Source: Escherichia coli (GTDB lineage: Bacteria > Pseudomonadota > Gammaproteobacteria > Enterobacterales > Enterobacteriaceae). From it: a DNA stretch of 64,000 bases. The stretch lies in the NCBI RefSeq assembly GCF_051903065.1, contig NZ_CP178438.1; one strand, given 5' to 3'. A program made the position numbers. Position 1 is the stretch's first letter, and each line of letters starts with the position of its first letter. Positions 35,701 through 38,700 of the stretch are shown here, one piece after another.

Positions 35701-38700
35701 TTTGGGCGAGGGCAGGTTATATTCAGCCAACCGGTCAGACGCTGTTAGCGCCGCACTGGAGCTTTATGCCAGGTACCTATCAGGGTGCGGAAGCCGGAGC
35801 GAATTTTGATTACGGCGATGCCGGTGCGTTGAGTTTCTCCTACATGTGGACCAACGAATACAAAGCACCGTGGCATCTGGAAATGGATGAGTTTTATCAG
35901 AACGATAAAACTACCAAAGTTGATTATCTGCACTCCATCGGTGCGAAATACGACTTCAAAAATAACTTCGTACTGGAAGCGGCATTTGGTCAGGCGGAAG
36001 GGTATATCGATCAATACTTTGCCAAAGCCAGCTACAAATTTGATATCGCCGGTAGCCCGTTAACCACCAGCTACCAGTTCTACGGTACGCGCGATAAAGT
36101 TGACGATCGCAGCGTCAACGATCTTTATGACGGCACCGCCTGGCTGCAAGCGTTGACCTTTGGTTACCGGGCGGCTGACGTAGTGGATTTGCGCCTCGAA
36201 GGCACCTGGGTTAAAGCTGACGGTCAGCAGGGATACTTCCTGCAACGTATGACTCCAACCTACGCTTCCTCGAACGGTCGCCTGGATATCTGGTGGGATA
36301 ACCGTTCTGACTTCAACGCCAACGGCGAAAAAGCGGTCTTCTTCGGTGCGATGTATGACCTGAAAAACTGGAATCTTCCAGGCTTCGCCATCGGCGCTTC
36401 CTACGTTTACGCATGGGATGCTAAACCTGCGACCTGGCAGAGCAATCCGGATGCGTACTACGACAAAAACCGGACTATTGAAGAGTCTGCCTACAGCCTG
36501 GATGCGGTCTACACCATTCAGGACGGTCGCGCCAAAGGCACGATGTTCAAACTGCACTTCACCGAATACGACAACCACTCCGACATCCCAAGCTGGGGCG
36601 GCGGTTACGGTAACATCTTCCAGGATGAGCGTGACGTGAAATTTATGGTAATCGCACCATTCACCATCTTCTGATGCCCGACGCGGCAGGTTTTGTGCCT
36701 GCCGCACGTTTGAGGAATTTGCTATGAAAAAACTGATTCTCATCGCCATGATGGCATCGGGGCTGGTAGCTTGTGCGCAATCAACCGCACCACAGGAAGA
36801 CAGCCGTCTGAAAGAGGCATACAGCGCCTGTATCAACACCGCACAAGGTTCGCCGGAAAAAATTGAAGCCTGCCAGAGCGTGTTAAACGTGCTGAAGAAA
36901 GAGAAACAACATCAGCAGTTTGCCGACCAGGAAAGTGTCCGCGTACTGGATTATCAGCAGTGTCTACGTGCAACGCAAACCGGAAATGATCAGGCGGTGA
37001 AAGCCGATTGTGATAAGGTCTGGCAGGAAATTCGCAGTAATAACAAATAAGTGAGAGCTGTAACTCTCGCTTTTCTTATTTCCCTTGCATAAAAAAGCCA
37101 ACCCGCAGGTTGGCTTTTCTCGTTCAGACTGGCTTATTTGCCTTCGTGCGCGTGCTCATCTTCGCGGCAATCGCCTTCGGCACAGTGACCGTAAAGATAG
37201 AGACTGTGGTTAGTCAGGCGAATGCCATGTTTTGCGGCAATTTCACGCTGACGCGCTTCGATTGAATCATCACTAAATTCGATAACCTTGCCGCAGTCGA
37301 GGCAGATCAGGTGATCGTGGTGATGTTGCTGTGTCAGTTCAAATACGGATTTACCGCCTTCAAAATTGTGGCGGGTGACGATACCAGCGTCGTCAAACTG
37401 GTTCAGTACGCGATATACCGTAGCCAGACCAATTTCTTCACCCATATCGATCAGACGTTTGTATAAATCTTCCGCACTGACGTGATGGTTGTCCGGCTCC
37501 TGAAGAACTTCCAGGATTTTTAAACGTGGAAGCGTTACTTTCAGGCCAGCTTTCTTTAGGGCGGTATTGTTATCAGTCATGCGGAATCTGTCCTGTTACT
37601 AAGCGGTTCACTTCATTAGAAGAAGTGACAGAATTTGCTCTTGAGATAATGCGTATCATTATAGAATTGCCACGCCTAAATGAAAACCACAAGTCCCTGG
37701 CAAATATTGTTAATAAAAACGTGGCACAGCTTACATTTACAACGGCAAGGCCACTTGAACACCGGGACATTGTACAGGTACAACAGCAAAAGTTACAAAT
37801 TTGTAGCAATTATTTTGATTGGCATTATCTATTAATACGGCGTAGACATGAGTCTACGCCGCATCACATCAGGCATTGAGAATTTCGTCGAGATGCAACT
37901 CTTCAGAAATCTGTTTAACCCATTTTTCTACACGTTCAGCGGTCAGTTCCGGCTGACGGTCTTCGTCGATAGCCAGACCGACAAAGTGGTCGTCATCTGC
38001 CAGACCTTTTGATGCTTCGAAATGATAGCCCGCAGTTGGCCAGTGACCAACGATGGTTGCACCGCGCGGTTCAATGATGTCGCGGATGGTGCCCAATGCG
38101 TCGCAGAAATATTCGGCGTAATCTTCCTGGTCACCACAACCAAACAGCGCAACCAGTTTGCCATTGAAATCAATCTCTTCGAGAGTCGGGAAGAAGTCAT
38201 CCCAGTCACACTGCGCTTCGCCGTAATACCAGGTTGGGATGCCCAGCAGCAGAATGTCATAAGCTTCCAGATCTTCTTTGCTGCTTTTTGCAATGTCATG
38301 GACATCGGCAACGTCTTTACCAAGCTGTTTTTGAATCATTTTTGCGATATTTTCGGTATTACCGGTGTCGCTGCCGAAAAAGATGCCAGTGATAGCCATG
38401 AGTGAAATAACCTCTTGAAACTTATTGAAATGGGGGTGGAAAATTGCCCACGGATAAAGGCAATCATAGCAGAACAGGCAGTCTTGCGGAATCAGCAAAC
38501 GAGCAGGACTGCACACTGTGCTACATGAAAGTGGAAATTTAAACGATGCCCTGACTACGCAGCGCCGCCAGTTGCTGCATTAACATCTCTTCGATCAGTT
38601 CGCTACGGCTCATATTGCGCGATTCCGCCAGTTCGTTCAGCGCCTCGACAGCTTCCGCGTTCAGCTTCAGTTCGACACGCTTAAGGCCACGTACTTTGTC

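What the first reader, a model, noticed from the sequence alone, without database searches (positions are those of the whole stretch)
37573..37662. Fur box overlaps the start codon of the uof leader ORF that is coupled to fur
The Fur-box-like GATAATGCGTATCATTAT contains the uof ATG on the opposite strand, and the uof stop overlaps the fur start. This layers autoregulation at the DNA level with translational coupling, and RyhB targeting of uof has been described.
Basis: partly seen in the sequence, partly recalled or inferred. Interest (0 to 1): 0.3.

Follow-up and report, generated by a model that had tools for sequence, protein, structure and literature searches.

The report
Known E. coli uof-fur leader and Fur box

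Summary
The window is E. coli chromosome. fur lies at 37134..37580(-) and the annotated 28-codon "fur leader peptide" uof at 37573..37659(-). The best Fur-box match in the 64 kb is at 37645..37663 (16/19 to consensus; 0.01 expected by chance). It contains the uof ATG (37659..37657). uof overlaps fur by 8 nt, with its TGA 2 nt after the fur ATG.

The Fur box covers a conserved sigma-70 promoter: -35 TTTTCA, 17 nt spacer, -10 TATAAT at 37663..37658. The last two bases of the -10 are the A and T of the uof ATG. The strongest published start site maps to 37650, which is uof nucleotide +10. Fur-repressible transcripts therefore lack the uof start codon. Only longer transcripts carry the whole uof: those from the upstream uof promoter (start 37762) or read-through from fldA/ybfE. 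The RyhB pairing site (37640..37627) is on both forms.

Across 80 Enterobacterales loci the promoter is conserved (TATAAT in 77). An E. coli-type uof reaching fur occurs in only 36, and its codons show no coding-type constraint. All of this is already in the literature and in EcoCyc-derived descriptions, so interest is low.

The parts
37134..37580 (-). fur coding sequence (148 aa)
   Evidence: ORF list; RefSeq annotation; NCBIfam NF006999, 309 bits
37573..37659 (-). uof, a 28-codon leader ORF that overlaps fur by 8 nt
   Evidence: annotated 'fur leader peptide'; NF011344, 85.2 bits against a cutoff of 71
37645..37663 (.). Fur box (19 bp), the operator of the proximal fur promoter; spans -13 to +6 relative to the start site at 37650
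   Evidence: 16/19 to consensus and unique in 64 kb. [quoted passage not shown]
37658..37663 (-). -10 hexamer TATAAT of the proximal fur promoter; its last two bases are the A and T of the uof ATG
   Evidence: Promoter scan, 10/12 matches; TATAAT kept in 77/80 orthologous loci
37681..37686 (-). -35 hexamer TTTTCA, 17-nt spacer
   Evidence: TTTTCA at 17-nt spacing in 58 loci; alignment
37650..37650 (-). Main mapped transcription start of the fur mRNA (uof nucleotide +10; 70-nt leader)
   Evidence: Kim 2012 supplement, TSS 709939 (NC_000913.2), 46 reads; mapped to the window by exact 51-mer
37762..37798 (-). Upstream uof-fur promoter: -35 TTGTAA 37798..37793, -10 TACAAT 37774..37769, start site 37762
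   Evidence: Promoter scan; Shimada 2014 lists TTGTAA-18-TACAAT for uof-fur; Kim 2012 TSS 710051, 8 reads
37627..37640 (-). RyhB pairing site: GAGCAA and UGUC pair with RyhB nt 38-47, including G44/C45. It lies downstream of both start sites
   Evidence: Duplex calculation, -11.9 kcal/mol; RyhB sequence from MG1655; G44/C45 mutant data cited in PMC6191717
37608..37628 (-). Leader hairpin UCACUUC / 7-nt loop / GAAGUGA inside uof
   Evidence: RNA folds. A hairpin sits at the same place with different stem sequences in other genera
37591..37594 (-). fur Shine-Dalgarno AGGA, within the near-invariant block ACAGGACAGATTCCGCATG
   Evidence: Alignments; anti-SD energy -4.0 kcal/mol
37831..37862 (-). 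fldA intrinsic terminator; limits read-through into uof-fur
   Evidence: Term-seq 3' end at 710897 with intrinsic score 19.7, mapped to 37831; hairpin read

Best explanation
The 19-bp Fur box at 37645..37663 is the operator of the conserved proximal sigma-70 promoter of fur. That promoter has -35 TTTTCA at 37686..37681, -10 TATAAT at 37663..37658 and a start site at 37650. Iron-loaded Fur bound there covers -13 to +6 and blocks RNA polymerase, which is classical and weak autoregulation.

The uof ATG is formed by the last two bases of the -10 hexamer plus the next G. Transcripts from this promoter therefore begin at uof nucleotide +10 and cannot initiate uof. On them, fur must be translated from its own, highly conserved ribosome-binding site.

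Complete uof is present only on longer transcripts. These come from the upstream promoter (start 37762; OxyR-regulated, from my own knowledge of Zheng 1999) or from read-through past the fldA terminator. On those transcripts the published uof-to-fur translational coupling can operate, and the Fur box lies within the transcribed region at about +100.

The RyhB site (37640..37627) is on both isoforms. Autoregulation and uof coupling thus act on alternative mRNA isoforms chosen by promoter use, not on one mRNA.

Shown here: the sequence geometry, the motif statistics, the mapping of published start sites, and conservation. Inferred, or taken from the literature: Fur occupancy, coupling and RyhB action.
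For: The Fur box is unique and top-scoring in the window. The best promoter match in the region has its -10 on the uof ATG. Published start sites map to 37650 (46 reads), 37762 (8) and 37793 (5). [quoted passage not shown] PMC6191717 reports northern blots that resolve a fur mRNA from Pfur 'located within the uof ORF' and a uof-fur mRNA from Puof. Shimada 2014 lists TTGTAA-18-TACAAT as the uof-fur promoter. Conway 2014 describes three promoters for ybfE-fldA-uof-fur. On conservation, TATAAT is kept in 77/80 loci, TTTTCA at 17 nt in 58, and GAnACGCA after the -10 in most.
Against: The start-site coordinates come from one genome-wide data set plus secondary descriptions. The primary mapping papers (De Lorenzo 1988, Zheng 1999, Vecerek 2007) could not be read here. 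Read counts from one growth condition do not give isoform ratios under iron or oxidative stress. PMC7867234 saw no iron effect on an EcPfur::lacZ fusion in wild type. A text search of the Fur ChIP-exo pan-regulon tables found a 'uof,fur' peak in only one strain. Repression at this box may therefore be weak.
Confidence: 0.8

Rival explanations
1. One reading: one fur mRNA carries uof. Fur represses its synthesis at the box, and on that same mRNA uof translation, blocked by RyhB, drives fur translation.
For: uof is annotated and matches its NCBIfam model. The 8-nt ORF overlap exists. Reviews describe uof-fur coupling and RyhB control. Longer transcripts containing uof do exist.
Against: The promoter that the box occludes starts transcription at uof +10. 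Two papers place Pfur inside uof. For the upstream promoter the box lies at about +100 to +118, which is not a normal repression position.
Confidence: 0.15
2. uof is not a selected coding element. Its ATG is a by-product of the -10/Fur box, and the open frame is fortuitous and lineage-restricted. The conserved functional parts of the leader are the promoter/operator, the hairpin and the fur ribosome-binding site.
For: The Fur-box consensus reads MIIII and uof starts MIRII. The frame stays open in about 22% of shuffles, and the stop is forced by fur codons. An E. coli-type ORF is present in only 36/80 loci. It ends early in Salmonella arizonae (16 codons), Klebsiella oxytoca and Raoultella (14) and Pantoea (4). 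One-nucleotide loop indels break the frame in taxa whose close relatives keep it. Variable columns by codon position are 13/11/13 for uof against 3/2/21 for fur, and the nonsynonymous/synonymous ratio is 2.64 against 0.10. PMC7867234 says uof is absent in Yersinia enterocolitica.
Against: Published experiments in E. coli, cited but not readable here, report uof translation and dependence of fur translation on it. Several genera carry 3-nt length changes that keep the frame (ATG at -79, -82 or -85). A leader ORF that works through the act of translation need not conserve its peptide.
Confidence: 0.25
3. The Fur box acts on both transcript classes. It occludes the proximal promoter and also acts as an elongation roadblock for transcripts coming from uofp or fldA.
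For: This rests on geometry only. The box lies inside the transcribed region of all upstream-initiated RNAs. A second, weaker Fur-like site (14/19) lies just upstream of the uofp -35 at 37811..37829.
Against: There is no direct evidence. No RNA 3' end is reported at the box in the Term-seq tables searched; the only ends found are 710645 and 710897. fldA expression changes little in fur mutants.
Confidence: 0.1

Closest known systems
E. coli K-12 uof-fur locus (b4637/b0683; 'RyhB-regulated fur leader peptide')
   Same: The window is 100% identical to E. coli O145 genomes over 801 bp, and 5424 of 5426 complete E. coli genomes carry the region. All published K-12 start-site and 3'-end flanking sequences are found exactly in the window. 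Gene order is the same: chiP-chiQ, then fur-uof-fldA-ybfE on the opposite strand.
   Different: Nothing of substance differs. This is the same locus in another strain.
Classical Fur-repressed promoters with the iron box over -10/+1 (for example aerobactin iucA and fepA-fes; from general knowledge)
   Same: A 19-bp box with GATAAT-like hexamers coincides with the -10 TATAAT and the start site.
   Different: This box belongs to the regulator's own gene. Repression appears weak. The same DNA is also transcribed, and begins an ORF, on longer isoforms.
Translationally coupled leader ORFs and leader peptides of enteric bacteria (EcoCyc list containing uof: mgtL, speFL, tnaC, pheL and others)
   Same: A short upstream ORF ends at or within the start region of the regulated gene.
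   Different: There is no terminator/antiterminator alternative. The peptide is not conserved and the frame is often lost in relatives. The start codon is absent from the main promoter's transcript.

Membership tests
Fur box (Fur operator) | Match to the 19-bp consensus GATAATGATAATCATTATC well above chance | tested here: met
   16/19 on the - strand and 15/19 on the + strand. It is the only site in 64 kb with 3 or fewer mismatches, against 0.01 expected
Fur box (Fur operator) | Position overlapping the core promoter (-35 to +1 region) of the regulated gene | tested here: met
   The box spans -13..+6 of the start site at 37650 and contains the -10 TATAAT. PMC7867234 says the same
Fur box (Fur operator) | Conservation in orthologous promoters | tested here: inconclusive
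   The 5' part, TATAATGAnACGCATTA, is widely kept, but that also serves as the -10 and start site. Whole-box scores fall to 12-15/19 outside Escherichia and Citrobacter
Fur box (Fur operator) | Fur protein binds the site | not testable with these tools
   The De Lorenzo 1988 footprint is known to me only from memory. The ChIP-exo tables show a 'uof,fur' peak as a text hit in one strain, KO11
uof / fur leader peptide (NCBIfam NF011344) | Sequence matches the curated model above its cutoff | tested here: met
   85.2 bits against a cutoff of 71, full length 1-28
uof / fur leader peptide (NCBIfam NF011344) | ORF lies immediately upstream of fur and overlaps its start | tested here: met
   8-nt overlap, 37573..37580
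uof / fur leader peptide (NCBIfam NF011344) | The start codon is present on fur-encoding mRNA | tested here: inconclusive
   It is present on transcripts starting at 37762 or 37793 and on read-through transcripts. It is absent from the most-read start site, 37650
uof / fur leader peptide (NCBIfam NF011344) | The ORF is translated | not testable with these tools
   No ribosome-profiling table could be retrieved. The anti-SD pairing is weak and badly spaced, -3.6 kcal/mol
Translationally coupled upstream ORF | Reading frame reaching the downstream start is preserved among relatives | tested here: not met
   The frame reaches fur with a stop at +5 in only 36/80 loci. It ends before fur in 24, forms an ATGA overlap in about 8, and is in frame with fur in 4. 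There is no codon-position signal
Translationally coupled upstream ORF | Downstream translation depends on upstream translation | not testable with these tools
   Reported by Vecerek 2007 according to secondary sources
RyhB target site | Complementarity to the RyhB seed beyond chance | tested here: inconclusive
   The best local duplex is -11.9 kcal/mol at 37641..37626 with RyhB nt 37-48. Random 26-mers give a mean of -9.3 with sd 3.7
RyhB target site | Pairing involves the nucleotides shown genetically to matter (G44, C45) | tested here: met
   GAGCAA at 37640..37635 pairs with UUGCUC, RyhB nt 42-47. Mutant data are cited

The most novel reading that the evidence does not exclude
The E. coli-type uof may be an evolutionary by-product of the Fur box and -10 element, since its first five codons are the Fur-box consensus read in frame. 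The main Fur-repressible fur mRNA would then be translated independently of uof. Under this reading, uof coupling and 'iron-responsive decoding' apply only to the longer, stress-induced isoforms. Promoter choice would decide whether Fur synthesis is subject to uof-dependent control. RyhB would act on the short isoform through a site about 45 nt upstream of the fur ribosome-binding site, by a route other than blocking uof initiation.
Probability: 0.3. Interest if true: 0.35.

Novelty: already known. Interest (0 to 1): 0.15.

Why it matters
Fur is the master iron regulator of enteric bacteria, and how its level is set matters for iron homeostasis and virulence. The elements in this finding are all published: the Fur box on the fur promoter, uof, the RyhB site and the multiple promoters. 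The useful clarification is that the operator-controlled promoter starts inside uof. Models that stack autoregulation, uof coupling and RyhB on a single mRNA are therefore too simple. The comparative data suggest that the promoter, the leader hairpin and the fur ribosome-binding site are the deeply conserved parts, and that uof is not.

Tried and rejected
Papers not held:
- The primary papers could not be read: Vecerek 2007, Zheng 1999, Thomason 2015 and Escolar 1999.

Supplement searches that gave nothing for this locus:
- Conway 2014, Ettwiller 2016, Mendoza-Vargas 2009 and the small-protein Ribo-seq paper.
- As a result, the start-site evidence rests on Kim 2012 plus two descriptive papers, and translation of uof could not be checked.

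Computations that did not help:
- Whole-length RNA duplex folding of RyhB against the leader gave meaningless long-range structures no better than shuffles. A windowed seed-region calculation replaced it. That calculation shows the site is not distinguishable from background by energy alone.
- RNAalifold on the MAFFT alignment missed the leader hairpin because loop-length indels put the stems out of register. Per-sequence folds were used instead. This is not a phylogeny-aware covariation test.
- Rfam has no family for this leader.

Ideas rejected or downgraded:
- A Fur-like site at 11843..11861 (15/19) lies inside a long ORF and was dismissed as a chance match.
- I considered treating the stop/start overlap as evidence of selection. 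It is forced by the fur codons ATG ACT GAx.

Full report
**Identity of the region**

The window is Escherichia coli chromosome. An 801-bp query around the finding is 100% identical to O145 genomes and is present in 5424 of 5426 complete E. coli genomes. RefSeq annotates chiP and chiQ on one strand, and fur, uof ('fur leader peptide'), fldA and ybfE on the other.

In window coordinates fur is 37134..37580(-) and uof is 37573..37659(-), 28 codons, MIRIISRANSVTSSNEVNRLVTGQIPHD. MG1655 (NC_000913.3) coordinate = window coordinate + 673066. The peptide passes the curated NCBIfam model for the fur leader peptide, and Fur passes its equivalog model.

**Checking the observation**

- The quoted 18-mer is at 37645..37662 on the + strand.
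- The full 19-mer at 37645..37663 reads TATAATGATACGCATTATC on the - strand.
- It matches the Fur consensus at 16/19. It is the only site in the window with 3 or fewer mismatches (0.01 expected) and the top site overall.
- The uof ATG (37659..37657) lies inside it.
- The uof TGA (37575..37573) sits 2 nt after the fur ATG (37580..37578), so the ORFs overlap by 8 nt.

Two points reduce how much the geometry itself means:

- The Fur consensus contains an ATG and reads MIIII from it, while uof begins MIRII.
- Any ORF in either alternative frame that reaches fur must stop at +1 or +5, because fur begins ATG ACT GAx.

The 76 nt between the two ATGs stay open in about 22% of shuffles.

**What the Fur box sits on**

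The best sigma-70 match in the region is -35 TTTTCA (37686..37681), a 17-nt spacer and a perfect -10 TATAAT (37663..37658). The last two bases of the -10 are the A and T of the uof ATG.

Published genome-wide 5'-end mapping (Kim et al. 2012, supplementary table) lists four ends here. I placed them in the window by exact 51-mer matches:

| Window position | Reads | Note |
|---|---|---|
| 37650 | 46 | 70-nt leader; 7 nt between TATAAT and the start base |
| 37587 | 28 | 7 nt before the fur ATG |
| 37762 | 8 | assigned to uof |
| 37793 | 5 | assigned to uof |

Position 37650 is uof nucleotide +10 and lies within the Fur box, which therefore spans -13 to +6 of this promoter. The 37762 start follows TTGTAA-18-TACAAT, the promoter Shimada et al. 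2014 list for uof-fur.

Independent descriptions agree:

[quoted passage not shown] - Conway et al. 2014 describe three promoters feeding ybfE-fldA-uof-fur.
- Term-seq shows an intrinsic fldA terminator 3' end at window 37831, which limits read-through.

**Consequence for the interpretation**

The promoter that Fur can occlude makes an mRNA that lacks the uof start codon. Complete uof exists only on transcripts initiated upstream, for which the box is transcribed sequence at about +100. Autoregulation and uof-to-fur coupling are therefore properties of different isoforms, not two layers on one mRNA.

**RyhB**

I took RyhB from MG1655. The local duplex at the published site is mRNA GAGCAA (37640..37635) plus UGUC (37630..37627) with RyhB nt 38-47, at -11.9 kcal/mol. 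It includes G44 and C45, whose inversion abolishes regulation according to PMC6191717, which cites Vecerek 2007.

The energy is not distinguishable from random 26-mers of the window (mean -9.3, sd 3.7), so the support for this site is experimental rather than computational. The site lies 20-33 nt after the uof ATG and 10-24 nt after the 37650 start, so both isoforms carry it. PMC6191717 reports that RyhB lowered the short fur mRNA but not the long uof-fur mRNA. That result is hard to reconcile with a mechanism acting only through uof initiation.

**Comparative evidence**

I fetched 80 fur loci from different Enterobacterales species.

- The core promoter is strongly conserved. TATAAT lies within 140 nt of fur in 77/80 loci, TTTTCA at 17-nt spacing in 58, and GAnACGCA follows the -10 in most.
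- The block ACAGGACAGATTCCGCATGAC around the fur ribosome-binding site is nearly invariant.

The ORF that starts at the TATAATG ATG behaves differently:

| Outcome of the ORF | Loci | Examples |
|---|---|---|
| Reaches fur with the E. coli geometry (stop at +5) | 36 | |
| Stops before fur | 24 | Salmonella arizonae 16 codons; Klebsiella oxytoca and Raoultella 14; Pantoea 4 |
| Ends in an ATGA overlap | about 8 | |
| In frame with fur, no stop | 4 | |

One-nucleotide indels in a hairpin loop break the frame in taxa whose near relatives keep it: C. sedlakii, Citrobacter sp. Awk4, Enterobacter sp. Bisph1 and Salmonella arizonae.

Among 22 distinct 28-codon uofs, variable columns by codon position are 13/11/13. 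For fur codons 4-32 in the same genomes they are 3/2/21. The nonsynonymous/synonymous ratio is 2.64 against 0.10. The peptide is not under protein-level selection. That fits either a leader ORF that works only by being translated or a fortuitous ORF. Some genera do keep the frame through 3-nt length changes.

**Leader hairpin**

Inside uof, UCACUUC (37628..37622) pairs with GAAGUGA (37614..37608). A hairpin at the same place, with different stem sequences, appears in other genera:

- ACUUCC/GGAAGU
- UUGCUCC/GGAGCGA
- GCUCA/UGAGC
- GCCC/GGGC

This suggests a conserved RNA structure. RNAalifold missed it because of alignment register, and I did not run a phylogeny-aware test. No Rfam family covers it.

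**Verdict**

Everything here belongs to the known E. coli uof-fur system, so novelty is 'already known' and interest is low.

The main added value is the explicit geometry: the Fur box, the -10/+1 and the uof start codon occupy the same DNA. A second point is comparative. The promoter, the hairpin and the fur ribosome-binding site are the conserved core, and uof is not.

**Limits**

- The primary mapping and uof papers were not readable.
- Start-site counts come from a single data set and growth condition.
- Fur occupancy and uof translation could not be tested.

Noticed in passing
window 37579 (-), = MG1655 710645: The Term-seq tables of Adams et al. 2021 list a very abundant RNA 3' end exactly at the U of the fur AUG, inside the uof/fur overlap (scores 137086 and 180817). 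It is not Rho-dependent and has a low intrinsic-terminator score. Together with the 37650 start it would define an RNA of about 72 nt. Its origin is unexplained.
   Followed up: partly
window 37587 (-): A 5' end with 28 reads (Kim 2012) lies 7 nt before the fur ATG, in the context ACAG|AUUCC. That fits the RNase E-type RN|WUU motif (from general knowledge). It may be a processing site rather than a promoter.
   Followed up: no
window 37608..37628 (-); loci L003-L082 about 30-55 nt upstream of fur: A leader hairpin is conserved in position, with different complementary stem sequences across genera. There is no Rfam family for it. Loop-length indels in it are what shift the uof frame in several lineages. 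In E. coli the loop and 3' arm also contain a mini-ORF, AUG AAG UGA.
   Followed up: partly
window 37811..37829 (-): A second Fur-box-like site (GATAATGCCAATCAAAATA, 14/19) lies just upstream of the -35 of the distal uof-fur promoter. That is the region expected to hold the OxyR site. Only about six places in the 64-kb window score 14 or more.
   Followed up: no
L056, L057, L059, L062 (Buttiauxella, Dryocola and relatives), ATG at -66/-69 from fur: In these species the ATG of the conserved TATAATG is in frame with fur and no stop intervenes. If that ATG were transcribed and used, it would give a Fur protein extended by 22-23 residues at the N-terminus.
   Followed up: no
window 11843..11861: A Fur-box-like 19-mer (GATAATAATAATCAACAAC, 15/19) lies inside a 322-codon ORF (11748..12716, -). 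It is probably a chance match.
   Followed up: partly
literature, not a coordinate: In the nine-strain Fur ChIP-exo pan-regulon supplement, a text search found a 'uof,fur' binding peak only for strain KO11. PMC7867234 saw no iron effect on an E. coli Pfur::lacZ fusion in wild type. Autoregulation at this box seems weak or condition-dependent.
   Followed up: partly
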